The notes under the pieces were generated by a model that was given only the letters and a program-made list of their open reading frames with translations, did no database searches and was not told the origin of the DNA. A program made the position numbers and the translations under genes. A DNA stretch of 64,000 bases from an uncultured Planctomycetota bacterium (lineage in GTDB: Bacteria > Planctomycetota > Planctomycetia > Gemmatales > Gemmataceae). Where the stretch lies: assembly GCA_963849325.1 (NCBI GenBank), contig CAWKHF010000010.1:416001-480000 (forward strand), read 5' to 3'. How positions within the stretch are numbered: position 1 is the stretch's first letter; each line of letters opens with the position of its first letter. This document shows, piece after piece, positions 27,029 through 30,147 of the stretch.

Positions 27029-28135
27029 ATGAAGCGTCTGGCATGGGCCGTCGCCGTCGTCTGTCTGTTCGTCGGCATCTCGGCGCTTGTCGCGGAGGAT
27101 ACCGTTTACTTCGTGGACCACGAGATGAAGAAGGAACAGAGTGTCCGCGGCGCCATCGAGCAAGAGACGCCGTCCGGCATCAAGCTCAAGACCAAGAGCG
27201 GCGTCAAGGACATTCCGGCCCGCAACGTCACGCAGATCGTCTACGACAACAAAATCGTGGCCGTCATCGACTTTCGCCGGCCGGACGCCAACCTGACCAA
27301 GGCCCGCAACGAGACGAATGCCGCCAAGCGCGCCGACCTGTTGAAAGAAGCCCTTGTCGGCTTTCAGGCGCTCGACACGCAGCTGCGCGGCGTGACCAAC
27401 ATTCACCGCTATCTGCTGTACCGGATCGCCCAGACGACGGCCCTACAAGCCAAGGATGATTCGAGCCGATTGGACGCGGCCATCGCGGCCCTGGTGGAGG
27501 CGAAAACCACCCTGTCGGACGGCTGGGAAATCGTGCCAGCCCTACAACTGCTGGCACGCTTGCAGGAAGAAAAGGGCGACGGCCACGGCGCCAGTCAGAC
27601 CTACTCCGACCTGGCCGAAGTGCCCGGCATTTCTCCGGAGATGAAGCTGCGGAGCCAATTGCTGGGCGCCCGTCTGTTGTTGCGCGTCAGCAAATTCCCC
27701 GAGGCGGAAGCGAAGCTCAAACAGTTGGCGTCCGCGCTGCCCAAGGACGACCCGCAACGCACGTTCGTCGATGTCTACCTGGCCCAGTCGCAGATGGCCC
27801 AGGGCAACGTCAACGGCGTCGAGGCCAAGCTGAAAGCCGCCATCCTTTCCAACCCCGACAGAAACCTGCGCGCCCTGGCCCACAACTTCCTCGGCGATTA
27901 CTACCGGCTCCAACGAGAGCCGGAGCAGGCGTTCTGGGAATACCTCAAGGTCGATACTCTGTACAGCGACGATAGGGAGGAACACGCCAAGGCGCTGTAC
28001 TATCTGTCGCAGCTGTTCGACAAGCCGAAGAACAACCCGGCCCGTGCCGAGGCGTGCCTGGCGAAGCTCAAATCCAAGGACTACGATGGCACGACCTATC
28101 AGCGCATGGCCCAGAGCGACAAGAAGACGCCGTAA
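27029..28135 (+). CDS. secreted TPR-like protein
   Basis: AGGAG RBS, signal peptide, and TPR-like C-terminus (AHNFLGDYY...AFWEYLKVDTLY...AKALYYL). Confidence 0.75.
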   Translation: MKRLAWAVAVVCLFVGISALVAEDTVYFVDHEMKKEQSVRGAIEQETPSGIKLKTKSGVKDIPARNVTQIVYDNKIVAVIDFRRPDANLTKARNETNAAKRADLLKEALVGFQALDTQLRGVTNIHRYLLYRIAQTTALQAKDDSSRLDAAIAALVEAKTTLSDGWEIVPALQLLARLQEEKGDGHGASQTYSDLAEVPGISPEMKLRSQLLGARLLLRVSKFPEAEAKLKQLASALPKDDPQRTFVDVYLAQSQMAQGNVNGVEAKLKAAILSNPDRNLRALAHNFLGDYYRLQREPEQAFWEYLKVDTLYSDDREEHAKALYYLSQLFDKPKNNPARAEACLAKLKSKDYDGTTYQRMAQSDKKTP

Positions 28136-28174
28136 CGGCGAGACGTTTGGCCGTTCTCGCGGGACATTCCGGTC

Positions 28175-28204
28175 TTGCTGGGAGTGTGCGCGGGTCTCTA
28201 TAAT
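28175..28204 (+). promoter_or_regulatory. sigma70 promoter of the tRNA-Ala locus
   Basis: TTGCTG-N18-TATAAT, ~20 nt upstream of the tRNA 5' fragment. Confidence 0.65.
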
Positions 28205-28225
28205 CCCTTCATTACTCCCGCGCAT

Positions 28226-28251
28226 GGGGCCGTAGCTCAACTGGGAGAGCG
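28226..28251 (+). pseudogene. 5' fragment (nt 1-26) of tRNA-Ala, a direct repeat of 28744-28769
   Basis: GGGGCCGTAGCTCAACTGGGAGAGCG is identical to the start of the intact tRNA; there is no anticodon arm, T arm or 3' acceptor strand. Confidence 0.9.
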
Positions 28252-28769
28252 CAGCGAAGGAGGCGCAGAATGCAGCCGCCACTGGACTGGATGGTGAGGG
28301 CGAATCCATCTTACGATTCCAACCGGATCGGAGCTCTCTCGCAGGCGAAAGTTCTGACTGCCCTAACCGCGGCTGGGAAAGCCGTCCTCGCGCCCTGCGT
28401 TTGCGTCAGGCCGTACGATTTCGTGATTGAAGAAGATGGATCTTTTTTTCGAATTCAGTGTAAGACAGGACGGTTGATGCGCGGCGCGATTGTTTTTCCC
28501 ACGCACCGGCAGCGTGCGGTGAAACGCGAAACGGGTTGGGAGCGCCGAATCGTGAGCTATGAGGGCGAGATCGAGTTCTTCGGAGTTTATTGTCCAGAGA
28601 ATGACAAAGTCTACCTTGTCCCGCTAAGTGAGGTTCACTCTGCATGGATGGGCATGCTGCGCGTCGAGCCGCCGAAAAACAACCAGAGAAAGCGGATACA
28701 ATGGGCGGATGACTACCTGTTGAAATGATTCCTTCCAGCAGCTGGGGCCGTAGCTCAACTGGGAGAGCG
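28252..28769 (+). mobile_element. putative intron-less homing-endonuclease element inserted in tRNA-Ala
   Basis: Removing 28252-28769 restores a single intact tRNA directly behind its promoter. The segment carries one nuclease ORF and is visibly more AT-rich than its flanks. Confidence 0.65.
28270..28728 (+). CDS. PD-(D/E)XK endonuclease of the group I intron-associated (I-Ssp6803I / PDDEXK_5) type
   Basis: AAGGAGG RBS 6 nt upstream; RIGALSQAKV...V..P...PYDFVIE...FFRIQCKTG...Y...IEFFGVYCP...VYLVP...LRVEPPKNNQ pattern; 152 aa. Confidence 0.85.
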   Translation: MQPPLDWMVRANPSYDSNRIGALSQAKVLTALTAAGKAVLAPCVCVRPYDFVIEEDGSFFRIQCKTGRLMRGAIVFPTHRQRAVKRETGWERRIVSYEGEIEFFGVYCPENDKVYLVPLSEVHSAWMGMLRVEPPKNNQRKRIQWADDYLLK

Positions 28770-28816
28770 TCGCGTTCGCAATGCGAAGGCTAGGGGTTCG
28801 AGCCCCCTCGGCTCCA
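28744..28816 (+). tRNA. tRNA-Ala (anticodon CGC)
   Basis: Cloverleaf: acceptor GGGGCCG/CGGCTCC with G3:U70, anticodon arm TCGCG-TTCGCAA-TGCGA, T loop GGTTCGAGCC; CCA not encoded. Confidence 0.95.
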
Positions 28817-28822
28817 CTTTCC

Positions 28823-28858
28823 AAGACCTTCCGAGCATTCGGAAGGTCTTTTTCTTTT
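28823..28858 (+). terminator. intrinsic terminator after tRNA-Ala
   Basis: AAGACCTTCCGA-loop-TCGGAAGGTCTT followed by a T-rich tract. Confidence 0.85.
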
Positions 28859-28872
28859 GTGTCCCAGCAACG

Positions 28873-29655
28873 TCAAAAATCGCGGTGATACCCGGCCGTC
28901 CAGCCGCCATCGACGGTGAGGATGTGGCCGTTGACGTAGCTGCTCTCGGGAGCGGCCAGGAACAGGGCGGCATGAGCGATCTCTTCCGGCGTGCCGGGGC
29001 GACCCAGCGGCACATGCGCCAGCATCTGCCGCACGGAATCCTTGAACAGGCCATCCTCGCCGTAAAAGAGCTTGCGTGTGCCCTCCGTCAGCGTCGAGCC
29101 GGGCGCGATACCGTTGACGAGGATGCCGTGCGGACCCAACTCCAGCGCCATGGCCCGGGTTAGATTGATGACGGCTGCCTTGGCCGCGACGAACGCACAC
29201 TGCAAGCGTAGCGGCACCAGCCCGGCGATGGAGGCGATGTTGAGGATGCGCCCGGATTTCTGTCGCCGCATCACCTGCGCGACGGCCCGGCAGACGAGGA
29301 ACACGCCTTGCAGGTCCACGGCGAGGATACGGTCCCACTCCTCTTGCGGAAACTGATCGATGGGGACGCGATGGGCCAATGTGTTGACGCCGGCGTTGTT
29401 GACCGCGATGTCGAGTCGGCCATGCCGCCGCACGATGTCGGCGACGACCGCCTCGACTTGCCCCGCGTCGGTCACGTTCAGGGCCATCGCCTCGCCGTTG
29501 GCCGAGGCGGCCGCCGATGCCGTCGCCCCCGGTAGGTCGACGTCGGTATAGACGACGCGGGCGCCGTTGACGGCGAAGAGGTCGGCGATCGCCTTGCCGA
29601 TGCCGCGCGCGGCACCTGTTACCAGGGCGACCTGGTTCGTGAGGTTCACCTTCAT
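28873..29655 (-). CDS. SDR family NAD(P)-dependent oxidoreductase
   Basis: VTGAARGIG, VNNAGVN, NIASIAG and VDGGW motifs; the catalytic YxxxK appears as FVAAK. Confidence 0.9.
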   Translation of the reverse strand: MKVNLTNQVALVTGAARGIGKAIADLFAVNGARVVYTDVDLPGATASAAASANGEAMALNVTDAGQVEAVVADIVRRHGRLDIAVNNAGVNTLAHRVPIDQFPQEEWDRILAVDLQGVFLVCRAVAQVMRRQKSGRILNIASIAGLVPLRLQCAFVAAKAAVINLTRAMALELGPHGILVNGIAPGSTLTEGTRKLFYGEDGLFKDSVRQMLAHVPLGRPGTPEEIAHAALFLAAPESSYVNGHILTVDGGWTAGYHRDF

Positions 29656-29837: not shown

Positions 29838-29874
29838 GGAAGGGAGAATCAACCCATTCGACGCGGGGGTGAGC

Positions 29875-30147
29875 ATGTCCAAGGCCATTGTTGATCCGGC
29901 GGAGCTGCGTCGCTTTGCTCAGAACCTGAAACACTTCAACAACGAATTGCAGCACCAGCTCGCCGTCCTCCAGGGACAGTTCTCGGGACTCGGCGATACC
30001 TGGCGCGATCAGGAGCAGGAGCGCTTCGCGCAGCAGTTCGCCGAGGCCGTTCAGGTCCTCAGTCGTTTCATGGAAACGTCGCAGCAGCAGATCCCGTATT
30101 TGCTTCGCAAGGCGGAGCGGATCGAAGAATACCTGCAACAGCGCTGA
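29875..30147 (+). CDS. WXG100/ESAT-6-like protein (W-x-D variant)
   Basis: 90 aa; AIVDPAELRRFAQNL N-terminus, central LGDTWRDQEQERF turn, two amphipathic helices, no signal peptide. Confidence 0.85.
   Translation: MSKAIVDPAELRRFAQNLKHFNNELQHQLAVLQGQFSGLGDTWRDQEQERFAQQFAEAVQVLSRFMETSQQQIPYLLRKAERIEEYLQQR

What the first reader, a model, noticed from the sequence alone, without database searches (positions are those of the whole stretch)
28175..28858. Intron-less homing-endonuclease element that splits and rebuilds a tRNA-Ala gene
Seen: promoter (TTGCTG-N18-TATAAT), then the first 26 nt of tRNA-Ala, a strong RBS, a 152-aa PD-(D/E)XK nuclease ORF, 15 nt, the complete tRNA-Ala(CGC) and a terminator. 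The direct repeat is 27 bp including the preceding T (28225-28251 = 28743-28769), and deleting 518 bp restores an ordinary tRNA locus. Known: this nuclease family is typified by I-Ssp6803I, encoded in a group I intron of a cyanobacterial tRNA gene; integrase-type islands usually duplicate the tRNA 3' end. Here there is no room for a ribozyme (18 nt upstream and 15 nt downstream of the ORF), no integrase, and the 5' end is duplicated. Inference: a minimal selfish element that captures the tRNA promoter and stays harmless by carrying a replacement 5' tRNA segment instead of splicing.
Basis: partly seen in the sequence, partly recalled or inferred. Interest (0 to 1): 0.82.

Follow-up and report, generated by a model that had tools for sequence, protein, structure and literature searches.

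The report
Nuclease gene that overwrote tRNA-Ala
A small selfish gene for a DNA-cutting enzyme has landed inside an alanine tRNA gene of a planctomycete, left the first 31 bases of the old gene stranded upstream and brought a working replacement tRNA with it, so no intron is needed; relatives of this enzyme sit beside tRNA genes in many bacteria.

Summary
A 27-bp exact repeat lies at 28225-28251 and 28743-28769. Between the copies are a Shine-Dalgarno site and a 152-aa ORF. After them come a complete tRNA-Ala(CGC) and a terminator.

The ORF matches Pfam PF11645 at E 3.8e-28. Its predicted fold is closest to I-Ssp6803I (PDB 2OST).

All 10 same-genus genomes carry the empty allele: the same promoter followed directly by the tRNA.

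The stranded piece is really tRNA positions 1-31. It matches the genus consensus 31 of 31. The intact tRNA differs from that consensus at 8 positions, so nearly the whole working tRNA looks imported.

No group I intron is detected here. The same scan found one next to 11 homologs.

Of 160 homolog loci, 135 have a tRNA within 300 nt. Ten loci, at five tRNA species, show the fragment/ORF/tRNA layout. Every break falls at tRNA positions 31-35, the 5' side of the anticodon loop.

My reading is an intron-less homing element, like fungal mitochondrial mobile ORFs, here with a PD-(D/E)XK nuclease at a bacterial tRNA gene. Cleavage, immunity and co-transcription are inferred, not shown.

This scan earlier noted the same layout with LAGLIDADG genes in other genomes. 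Nine literature searches found no description of it for this family.

Verdict: first reading supported; a new variant of a known kind.

The parts
28175..28204 (+). tRNA promoter-like site (TTGCTG, 18 nt, TATAAT) that now precedes the fragment, the ORF and the tRNA
   Evidence: Read. The consensus scan did not call it. Both hexamers are conserved in all 10 same-genus alleles.
28226..28256 (+). Stranded native 5' fragment of tRNA-Ala(CGC), positions 1-31, ending in the anticodon-stem strand CAGCG
   Evidence: Identical 31 of 31 to the tRNA of 7 of the 10 same-genus genomes, the genus consensus; an eighth (G001) shares the CAGCG stem but differs at one D-loop base. Homology stops at the first base of the anticodon loop.
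28257..28263 (+). Shine-Dalgarno sequence AAGGAGG, 6 nt before the ATG
   Evidence: Read.
28270..28728 (+). 152-aa PD-(D/E)XK nuclease gene (PF11645, I-Ssp6803I-like)
   Evidence: Pfam E 3.8e-28. A profile hits only 2OST, E 8.6e-8. AF2 pLDDT 91.9; Foldseek top hit 2OST, TM 0.67/0.69. D50 and Q63 are invariant and K65 is conserved in at least 90% of 43 sequences.
28729..28743 (+). 15-nt spacer between the stop codon and the tRNA
   Evidence: Its last 10 nt resemble the native leader in 7 of 10 positions.
28744..28816 (+). Complete tRNA-Ala(CGC) with anticodon stem TCGCG/TGCGA; the working, probably imported copy
   Evidence: ARAGORN and Rfam at 64 bits. It is 64-67 of 73 identical to 9 genus alleles but 71 of 73 to a nuclease-linked tRNA in L115. 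This stem was seen in only 2 of 151 genomes of the order.
28823..28860 (+). Intrinsic terminator (12-bp stem, 4-nt loop, T run), native to the locus
   Evidence: It is similar to the terminator after the tRNA in relative G002.

Best explanation
This is an intron-less homing element.

The 152-aa protein is a site-specific PD-(D/E)XK endonuclease of the I-Ssp6803I family. I propose that it cuts tRNA-Ala(CGC) genes of the common CAGCG-stem type in or next to the anticodon loop.

Repair of that break copied in the ribosome-binding site, the nuclease gene, a short spacer and the donor's own tRNA-Ala(CGC). The recipient's left end, tRNA positions 1-31, stayed behind as a dead stub. The right-hand crossover fell between tRNA position 64 and the trailer.

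The cell therefore keeps a working tRNA without any splicing. The nuclease gene is now driven by the tRNA promoter. RNase P would release the tRNA from the joint transcript.

The new tRNA carries two compensated base-pair changes in the anticodon stem. These would alter both half-sites of a palindrome-like target and make the occupied allele immune. The stub can serve as the left homology arm for further homing.

Shown here: the insertion relative to empty alleles; family and fold; a native stub against a foreign-looking tRNA; recurrence of the layout; and break positions.

Inferred: cleavage site and specificity, immunity, co-transcription, and present-day activity.
For: 1. Empty alleles. Ten of 10 same-genus genomes have promoter then tRNA with no ORF at the syntenic place. 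Eight of the 10 have the CAGCG stem.

2. Native stub, foreign tRNA.
- The stub is 31 of 31 identical to the genus consensus.
- The intact tRNA differs from that consensus at positions 27, 28, 42, 43, 47, 50, 59 and 64.
- An unconstrained stub should drift faster than a working tRNA. The differences are therefore better explained as imported.

3. Family membership: Pfam 3.8e-28; the only PDB profile hit is 2OST at 8.6e-8; fold TM 0.67/0.69.

4. Patchy distribution. In 151 genomes of the order, only 5 have any homolog at E<=1e-5. The window type is found only in this genome.

5. Link to tRNA genes.
- 135 of 160 homolog loci have a tRNA within 300 nt; 78 of these have it downstream on the same strand.
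- All 12 nearest metagenome loci and L028-L030 have tRNA-Ala(CGC) downstream.
- 5 of the 17 aligned homologs end in ...GP, which I read as translation running into the tRNA's first bases up to its TAG at positions 8-10 (seen at the DNA level in L110, L114 and L115).

6. Recurrent layout. Ten loci have a 5' tRNA fragment upstream of the ORF, at Ala-CGC, Gly-CCC, Lys-UUU, Asp-GUC and Arg-UCU. All breaks lie at positions 31-35.

7. Clades follow tRNAs. Neighbour-tRNA labels need 24 changes on the nuclease tree, against a shuffled mean of 76.4 (0 of 200 shuffles as low). The window lies in a 12-row clade that is entirely Ala-CGC, support 99.

8. The GC content of the ORF is 0.53-0.56, against 0.60-0.69 in the flanks.
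Against: - No biochemical or expression evidence exists. No sequencing run was available.
- Most loci with a same-strand downstream tRNA show no fragment. That includes 6 evaluable loci of the Ala-CGC clade (L110, L112, L113, L117, L118/L030, L029). The fragment is therefore not a constant part of the family's layout.
- The immunity idea has a counter-example. In L159 the fragment and the intact tRNA share the same anticodon stem and differ in the D arm and acceptor instead.
- The tRNA most like the window's (L115, 71 of 73) belongs to a different sub-clade of nucleases than the window's nearest nucleases (L108, L110; tRNAs 61-62 of 73). The tRNA and the nuclease have therefore not simply travelled together.
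- Clustering of tRNA labels on the tree would also arise from vertical inheritance.
- The nearest homolog is only about 70% identical, so no donor is known.
- The ORF lacks the 16-20-residue C-terminal tail of its closest homologs.
Confidence: 0.75

Rival explanations
1. It is a relic. The insertion arose by homing, but the nuclease is now inactive or immobile and the locus is only a scar on its way to decay or deletion through the 27-bp repeat.
For: - The ORF lacks the C-terminal tail of its nearest homologs.
- One clade member, L117, has an internal stop, so decay does occur in this clade.
- No second copy of this type is present in the genome.
Against: - The ORF is open, with a strong Shine-Dalgarno site.
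- The core domain is complete, as in the shorter family members.
- The conserved D50, Q63 and K65 are present, and the model is confident, pLDDT 91.9.
- The stub is undecayed, 31 of 31, which points to a recent event.
Confidence: 0.15
2. The insertion did not arise by homing. The ORF and tRNA arrived through a recombinase acting in trans, a phage-borne tRNA cassette, or illegitimate recombination. The nuclease has a cellular role such as defence or DNA repair and sits by tRNA genes only because they are insertion hot spots.
For: - tRNA genes are classical integration sites.
- A 5' tRNA fragment beside a recombinase-bearing 1.8-kb element is described in Caldiarchaeum (PMC3293823, abstract).
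- Distant homologs occur in phage genomes, and several loci lie in tRNA arrays.
- The fold also resembles the SPARDA defence nuclease domain and Hjc.
Against: - No integrase or transposase was found among the six neighbouring ORFs.
- The insert is 518 bp with a single gene.
- Breaks at positions 31-35 in 10 loci at five tRNA species fit a nuclease cut site, not the 3'-end att sites of integrases.
- Nuclease clades follow tRNA identity.
Confidence: 0.07
3. It is a degenerate group I intron. The ORF was once intron-encoded, the ribozyme was lost, and the tRNA was rescued by duplication.
For: - The characterised member is intron-encoded.
- Eleven homologs lie 20-40 nt upstream of a group I intron.
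- The break sits where tRNA introns sit.
Against: - Only 13 nt separate the stub from the ATG, and 15 nt separate the stop from the tRNA.
- There is no Rfam group I match at E<=1, while the same library finds the introns in the relatives.
- In the two intron-linked relatives read, the ORF lies outside the intron, upstream of the whole split tRNA.
Confidence: 0.02
4. It is an assembly artefact or chimera.
For: The genome is a draft of 14 contigs at 84.7% completeness, and reads could not be inspected.
Against: - A 27-bp repeat is shorter than any read.
- The contig is long and both flanks are syntenic with relatives.
- Independent loci from other samples show the same layout (L109, L111, L114).
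Confidence: 0.01

Closest known systems
I-Ssp6803I (PDB 2OST; Pfam PF11645), the PD-(D/E)XK homing endonuclease of the Synechocystis tRNA-fMet group I intron
   Same: - Same Pfam family, with 2OST the only PDB profile hit and the best fold match.
- Conserved D...QxK columns.
- Its target is a pseudo-palindromic 23-bp site (PMC3384342 passages) in the anticodon region of a tRNA gene (title cited in PMC3984707). The breaks here lie in the same region.
   Different: - It is not intron-encoded, and there is no ribozyme.
- The tRNA differs (Ala-CGC) and so does the phylum (Planctomycetota).
- Sequence identity to 2OST is about 21%.
- Harmlessness comes from a replacement tRNA, not from splicing.
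Fungal mitochondrial mobile ORFs (mORFs), for example in Allomyces atp6 and Glomus atp6, atp9, cox2 and nad3
   Same: - An endonuclease ORF enters a gene without an intron, carries a foreign copy of the displaced gene end, and leaves the native end as a stub.
- The native piece matches close relatives while the inserted piece is divergent (PMC3630166 passages). The same logic and the same kind of evidence apply here.
   Different: - Mirror orientation: there the 3' end is replaced, here the 5' part is.
- Protein-coding organellar genes against a bacterial chromosomal tRNA gene.
- LAGLIDADG or GIY-YIG nucleases against a PD-(D/E)XK nuclease.
Phage T4 SegB and intron-less homing of free-standing endonucleases
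   Same: - A free-standing endonuclease gene among tRNA genes.
- It recognises a tRNA gene motif and spreads itself together with the neighbouring tRNA genes by gene conversion (PMC2330249 abstract; PMC3984707 passages).
   Different: - GIY-YIG family.
- Its target is the T-psi-C stem-loop.
- It acts in phage crosses.
- The abstract I read describes no stranded tRNA fragment.
[quoted passage not shown]
   Same: - Eleven homologs of this nuclease sit 20-40 nt upstream of a group I intron.
- In the two I read (L185, L067), the intron splits the anticodon loop of a tRNA that I parse by eye as tRNA-Asn(GUU).
- This fits the scheme described in PMC3984707.
   Different: In the window the neighbouring tRNA has no intron. 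The immunity the intron would give must come from elsewhere; I propose the variant anticodon stem.
Recombinase-borne insertion at tRNA-Thr(GGU) of Caldiarchaeum subterraneum (Sugahara et al. 2012)
   Same: A 5' tRNA fragment lies upstream of an inserted element, followed by an intact tRNA (PMC3293823 abstract).
   Different: That element is 1.8 kb and encodes a DNA recombinase, is archaeal, and its intact tRNA gains introns. Here the insert is 518 bp, carries only a nuclease, and has no recombinase.
LAGLIDADG cassettes at tRNA genes of DPANN archaea and CPR bacteria, noted earlier in this scan
   Same: The same three-part layout of stub, nuclease ORF and intact tRNA, according to AI notes e1-4893121, e1-4893122, e1-820295 and e1-1579550. 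I did not check these here.
   Different: A different nuclease superfamily and different hosts, with tiny genomes. Here the host is a free-living planctomycete with a large genome.

Membership tests
PF11645 / I-Ssp6803I-like PD-(D/E)XK endonucleases | Match to the family HMM above the curated cut-off | tested here: met
   98.7 bits against a cut-off of 26.1, E 3.8e-28, covering profile positions 2-136 of 138.
PF11645 / I-Ssp6803I-like PD-(D/E)XK endonucleases | Fold like the solved structure 2OST | tested here: met
   AF2 model with pLDDT 91.9. Foldseek ranks 1-4 are 2OST chains, E 1.2e-9, TM 0.67/0.69.
PF11645 / I-Ssp6803I-like PD-(D/E)XK endonucleases | Conserved acidic residue and Q/E-x-K of the nuclease motif | tested here: met
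   D50 and Q63 are invariant and K65 is conserved in at least 90% of 43 sequences. The YD and QxK columns align with 2OST. The catalytic role of these residues is assumed from the family.
PF11645 / I-Ssp6803I-like PD-(D/E)XK endonucleases | Site-specific cleavage of a tRNA gene | not testable with these tools
   Indirect only: fragment breaks at tRNA positions 31-35 in 10 loci.
Intron-encoded homing endonuclease (group I intron) | ORF embedded in, or flanked by, a group I ribozyme | tested here: not met
   No Rfam Intron_gpI match at E<=1 in 27500-29500. The same library finds introns beside 11 homologs. Only 13 and 15 non-coding nt flank the ORF.
Free-standing homing endonuclease gene (intron-less homing) | Precise presence/absence polymorphism at a conserved site | tested here: met
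   Ten of 10 same-genus genomes have the empty allele.
Free-standing homing endonuclease gene (intron-less homing) | Patchy distribution among relatives | tested here: met
   Five of 151 genomes of the order have any homolog at E<=1e-5, and the window type is found in 1 of 151.
Free-standing homing endonuclease gene (intron-less homing) | Co-conversion of flanking markers from the donor | tested here: met
   The intact tRNA differs from the genus consensus at 8 positions between 27 and 64, while the stub is 31 of 31 native.
Free-standing homing endonuclease gene (intron-less homing) | Nuclease-dependent transfer into empty alleles | not testable with these tools
   This needs a cleavage assay and a homing assay.
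mORF-type element (carries a replacement gene segment) | Duplicated gene segment on both sides of the endonuclease ORF, with the native copy displaced and the inserted copy divergent | tested here: met
   The criteria are those described in PMC3630166.
Integrase-type tRNA-targeting genomic island | An integrase gene and duplication of the tRNA 3' end | tested here: not met
   No integrase among the six neighbouring ORFs. The 5' part is the duplicated part.

The most novel reading that the evidence does not exclude
PF11645 nucleases form a large, undescribed class of tRNA-gene-specific homing elements in many bacterial phyla and in some viruses.
- Each clade is specialised on one tRNA.
- All cut at the anticodon loop.
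- They overwrite the host's tRNA gene with the allele they carry, a gene drive for tRNA alleles.
- Immunity of the occupied allele is achieved in two interchangeable ways within one family: a cleavage-resistant replacement tRNA, as in this window, or a group I intron that splits the target, as in the tRNA-Asn clade.

This would make the family a natural system for studying how endonucleases and introns come to share a site.
Probability: 0.5. Interest if true: 0.8.

Novelty: new variant of a known kind. Interest (0 to 1): 0.66.

Why it matters
Homing endonucleases are usually explained as tolerable because an intron or intein removes them from the gene product. Here a member of the family known from a single tRNA intron does without splicing. 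It brings a spare copy of the gene it breaks.

If the family-wide pattern holds, three things follow:
- Many bacterial tRNA genes are being replaced horizontally by nuclease-linked alleles.
- The variation seen in anticodon stems may in part be an arms race with these nucleases.
- One family offers both intron-less and intron-partnered forms at the same target region. That makes the proposed route from free-standing endonuclease to mobile intron directly testable.

The nucleases would also be a set of natural long-site cutters whose targets can be predicted from their neighbouring tRNA.

Tried and rejected
- Sequencing runs: none was listed for window 28000-29000. I therefore made no read-level check of the assembly and have no expression data.
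- NCBIfam: no model matched the window protein or its two paralogs.
- Promoter scan: it did not call the TTGCTG/TATAAT pair. I rely on conservation in relatives instead.
- Leader folding, 28212-28295: no structure beyond chance, z 0.76. I dropped the idea of a regulated or sequestered ribosome-binding site.
- Other gene orders: I searched the far side of the ORF for tRNA fragments in three arrangements (tRNA upstream on the same strand, convergent, divergent). The only hits at p<=0.01 were weak T-arm- or anticodon-arm-like stretches in L057/L148 and L173, and I did not count them as fragments.
- G016:C411: this contig carries the only other TCGCG-stem tRNA-Ala(CGC) in the order sample. I checked it as a possible donor-type allele. 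It is a different tRNA (other acceptor stem) on a low-GC contig with no nuclease, so it is uninformative.
- Flagged 'fragments' in L063, L074, L080, L158 and L167 turned out to be complete neighbouring tRNAs, and I dropped them.
- Papers: PMC1864971, the I-Ssp6803I structure paper, is not held. The enzyme's exact cut positions are therefore not cited.
- Literature: nine searches found no description of an intron-less PF11645 cassette at a tRNA gene. Supplements were not consulted.
Full report
**What is in the sequence**

Reading 27900-29100 gives the following order of features:
- a TPR-like gene ending at 28135;
- TTGCTG (28175-28180), 18 nt, then TATAAT (28199-28204);
- a short leader;
- the first bases of a tRNA-Ala (from 28226);
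- AAGGAGG (28257-28263);
- an ATG ORF at 28270-28728 (152 aa);
- 15 nt of spacer;
- a complete tRNA-Ala(CGC) at 28744-28817 (ARAGORN; Rfam tRNA 64 bits);
- a 12-bp hairpin with a T run at 28823-28850.

The exact repeat is 27 bp (28225-28251 and 28743-28769). The repeat finder extends it to 41 nt at 85% identity with spacing 518. The 26-mer of tRNA positions 1-26 occurs only at these two places in the 8.16-Mb genome.

The promoter was not called by the consensus scan, because the -35 matches only 3 of 6. Both hexamers are nevertheless conserved in all ten relatives' alleles.

**The protein**

- The ORF matches Pfam PF11645 (PDDEXK_5) at E 3.8e-28 over nearly the whole model.
- A profile of 18 homologs hits a single PDB sequence, 2OST (I-Ssp6803I), at E 8.6e-8.
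- An AlphaFold model built on 43 sequences has pLDDT 91.9. Its four best Foldseek matches are the 2OST chains (E 1.2e-9, TM 0.67/0.69). SPARDA nuclease domains and Hjc resolvases follow.
- D50 and Q63 are invariant, and K65 is conserved in at least 90% of sequences.
- The protein lacks the poorly conserved 16-20-residue tail of its closest homologs but has the full core.
- NCBIfam gave no match.

**Empty alleles**

The flanks were searched in 40 related genomes. In all ten genomes of the same genus, the upstream gene or promoter region abuts the tRNA directly. Nine of these are aligned, and the tenth (G005) was read.

Eight of the ten relatives have the anticodon stem CAGCG/TGCTG. The window's upstream fragment continues with exactly CAGCG before homology stops. 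The stub is therefore tRNA positions 1-31 (28226-28256), and the break lies at the first base of the anticodon loop.

The stub is identical to the genus consensus at 31 of 31 positions. The intact downstream tRNA has stem TCGCG/TGCGA. It differs from the consensus at positions 27, 28, 42, 43, 47, 50, 59 and 64, and is 64-67 of 73 identical to nine genus alleles. The leader upstream of the stub and the terminator downstream of the tRNA resemble those of relatives.

A dead stub should drift faster than a working tRNA. The simplest reading is a recent insertion in which the native 5' part was left behind and nearly the whole working tRNA came in with the nuclease gene.

Three further observations fit this:
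- In a sample of 151 genomes of the order, the TCGCG stem was seen only here and on one unrelated-looking contig.
- The ORF's GC content (0.53-0.56) lies below the flanks (0.60-0.69).
- No integrase or transposase is among the six neighbouring ORFs.

**No intron**

A permissive Rfam scan of 27500-29500 finds only the tRNA. The same library finds group I introns beside eleven homologs, so the negative result is meaningful. Only 13 nt and 15 nt of non-coding DNA flank the ORF.

**The family at large**

The protein search returned 75 homologs, all PF11645. The nearest is about 70% identical. Five of the 17 aligned homologs end in ...GP. I read this as translation running into the tRNA's first bases up to its TAG at positions 8-10; it is seen at the DNA level in L110, L114 and L115.

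I then took the best 80 loci from a scan of species-representative genomes and the best 80 from metagenome contigs.

ARAGORN places a tRNA within 300 nt of the nuclease match in 135 of these 160 loci:

| Position of the tRNA relative to the ORF | Loci |
|---|---|
| downstream, same strand | 78 |
| upstream, opposite strand | 25 |
| downstream, opposite strand | 16 |
| upstream, same strand | 16 |

Of the other 25 loci:
- Eleven have a group I intron 20-40 nt downstream of the ORF.
- At least seven of the rest are cut by a contig end on the downstream side.

In the two intron-linked loci I read, the ORF stops 12 nt (L185) or 13 nt (L067) before a tRNA whose anticodon loop is split by the intron. 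My by-eye parse makes it tRNA-Asn(GUU). This is the arrangement called collaborative homing (PMC3984707 passages).

On a FastTree of 149 nucleases, the label 'neighbouring tRNA' needs 24 changes (the minimum possible is 17). Shuffled labels give a mean of 76.4, and 0 of 200 shuffles are as low. The window sits in a 12-row clade in which every member precedes tRNA-Ala(CGC), support 99. Before building the tree I dropped four rows with internal stops and ten duplicate rows. Shared descent alone would also cluster these labels, so the result shows specialisation, not mobility.

In the window's own order the family is rare. Five of 151 genomes have any homolog at E<=1e-5, and none but this genome has the Ala-CGC type.

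The genome holds two paralogs, both next to tRNAs:
- One is 43% identical and convergent with tRNA-Ala(GGC), overlapping its 3' end.
- The other is 26% identical and sits upstream of tRNA-Arg(UCU).

Distant homologs occur in 23 phage records. In a haloarchaeal tailed virus the gene directly follows tRNA-Asn.

**Does the stub recur?**

For the loci with a same-strand downstream tRNA, I aligned the tRNA's first 40 nt to the 220 nt upstream of the ORF, with 300 shuffles each. Four such loci (L108, L114, L115, L116) had too little upstream sequence to test. I then inspected the hits. After removing hits that were complete neighbouring tRNAs, fragments remain in ten loci:

| Locus | tRNA | Last tRNA position retained | Note |
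|---|---|---|---|
| window | Ala-CGC | 31 | |
| L111 | Ala-CGC | 34 | |
| L109 | Ala-CGC | 34 | degenerate, p 0.047 |
| L114 | Ala-CGC | 35 | at a contig edge, seen by eye |
| L031 | Gly-CCC | 32 | |
| L052 | Gly-CCC | 32 | |
| L163 (= L166) | Lys-UUU | 34 | |
| L155 | Asp-GUC | about 32 | |
| L159 | Ala-CGC | 31 | from a different nuclease clade |
| L003 (own genome) | Arg-UCU | 31 | p 0.01 |

Every break lies at positions 31-35. These represent at least six independent groups.

In several loci (L163, L155, L159, L003) the stub has its own compensated stems. It therefore derives from a different functional tRNA than the intact copy.

The stub is not universal. Most tRNA-Thr(UGU) loci lack one, and so do six evaluable members of the Ala-CGC clade. 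No fragments were convincing in the other three gene orders.

**Mechanism**

The anatomy fits double-strand-break repair after a cut in the anticodon-loop region of an empty allele:
- The recipient's left end (positions 1 to about 31) is kept.
- The donor's ribosome-binding site, ORF, spacer and tRNA are copied in.
- The right crossover falls late in the tRNA.
- The stub then gives the element a left homology arm that does not depend on the host's flanking genes.

The occupied allele must escape cutting, even though it contains a whole tRNA. I-Ssp6803I reads a pseudo-palindromic 23-bp site (PMC3384342). I therefore propose that the two compensated stem pairs (27-43 and 28-42) change both half-sites.

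Evidence for this proposal:
- Three of the four Ala-CGC-clade stubs carry CAGCG.
- None of the 14 listed nuclease-linked intact tRNA-Ala(CGC) genes (the window and 13 loci of its clade) carries CAGCG.

Evidence against it:
- L159 keeps the same stem in the stub and the tRNA.
- The hosts of the metagenome loci are unknown.

Co-transcription from the tRNA promoter and release of the tRNA by RNase P are inferred from the layout. No other promoter-like site was found in 27900-29000.

**Comparison with what is known**

- The closest mechanistic precedent is the fungal mitochondrial mobile ORF. There an endonuclease ORF enters atp6, atp9, cox2 or nad3 with a foreign C-terminal segment, and the native end is displaced. 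The native piece matches relatives and the inserted piece is divergent (PMC3630166 passages). The window shows the mirror image at a bacterial tRNA gene.
- T4 SegB is a free-standing endonuclease among tRNA genes. It recognises a tRNA motif and spreads with its neighbours (PMC2330249 abstract).
- A recombinase-borne element with a 5' tRNA stub is known from Caldiarchaeum (PMC3293823 abstract).
- Earlier notes of this scan report the same three-part layout with LAGLIDADG genes in DPANN and CPR genomes. They also report a free-standing PF11645 gene beside an intron-bearing tRNA-fMet. I did not check those notes.
- Nine literature searches found no description of an intron-less PF11645 cassette at tRNA genes. 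One survey only notes a patchy distribution of the family (PMC3424549 table). Supplements were not consulted, and the I-Ssp6803I structure paper was not held.

**Verdict**

- The stub ends at position 31.
- Nearly the whole tRNA was replaced.
- The principle has an organellar precedent.

I rate it a new variant of a known kind, and the family-wide pattern makes it worth a bench test. Still untested: nuclease activity and its site, immunity of the resident tRNA, the transcript structure, and read-level confirmation of the assembly.

Noticed in passing
L036, L043, L051, L054, L060, L067, L085, L172, L182, L184, L185 (e.g. L185:1201-1905): Eleven PF11645 homologs lie 20-40 nt upstream of a group I intron. 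In the two I read, L185 and L067, the ORF stops 12-13 nt before a tRNA whose anticodon loop the intron splits. I parse that tRNA by eye as tRNA-Asn(GUU). The nuclease is thus outside the intron, a collaborative-homing-like arrangement. The intron-linked rows form one clade with support 99.
   Followed up: partly
L002 (G000:C6:18429-18830, minus strand) and tRNA-Ala(GGC) at L002:1418-1491: A paralog 43% identical to the window protein is convergent with tRNA-Ala(GGC). Its open frame reads on into the antisense of the tRNA's 3' end. The same arrangement is seen in relatives G008 and G009, but no homolog was found in G001 or G004.
   Followed up: partly
L003 (G000:C12:642282-642626, minus strand): A third, distant paralog (26% identity) precedes tRNA-Arg(UCU). 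It is itself preceded by a 31-nt tRNA 5' half that has its own compensated D stem. This is the same stub/ORF/tRNA layout at another tRNA in the same genome.
   Followed up: partly
L190 (MZ334501.1 53257-55109) and related haloarchaeal virus records: In haloarchaeal tailed viruses, an annotated PD-(D/E)XK nuclease gene (about 29% identity to the window protein) starts 3 nt after tRNA-Asn(GTT). Distant homologs also occur in large Enterobacteria, Enterococcus and Synechococcus phages.
   Followed up: no
L155, L159, L153, L167, L163 (metagenome loci): Several homologs lie inside dense arrays of 5-11 tRNA genes, possibly phage or array-type loci. L155, L159 and L163 have a stub directly before the ORF.
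   Followed up: partly
window 28216-28225 and 28734-28743: The 10 nt before the stub and the 10 nt before the intact tRNA are alike in 7 of 10 positions. The imported segment may carry a piece of a related tRNA leader, or this may be chance.
   Followed up: no
window 29869-30147 and downstream to about 32700: A WXG100-family protein (Pfam E 7.5e-9) is followed by ORFs with no Pfam match, next to the SDR gene. This may be a small WXG100-linked gene cluster in a planctomycete.
   Followed up: no
L117:1201-1644: One member of the Ala-CGC nuclease clade has an internal stop codon at 1453. This is consistent with decay of some copies.
   Followed up: no
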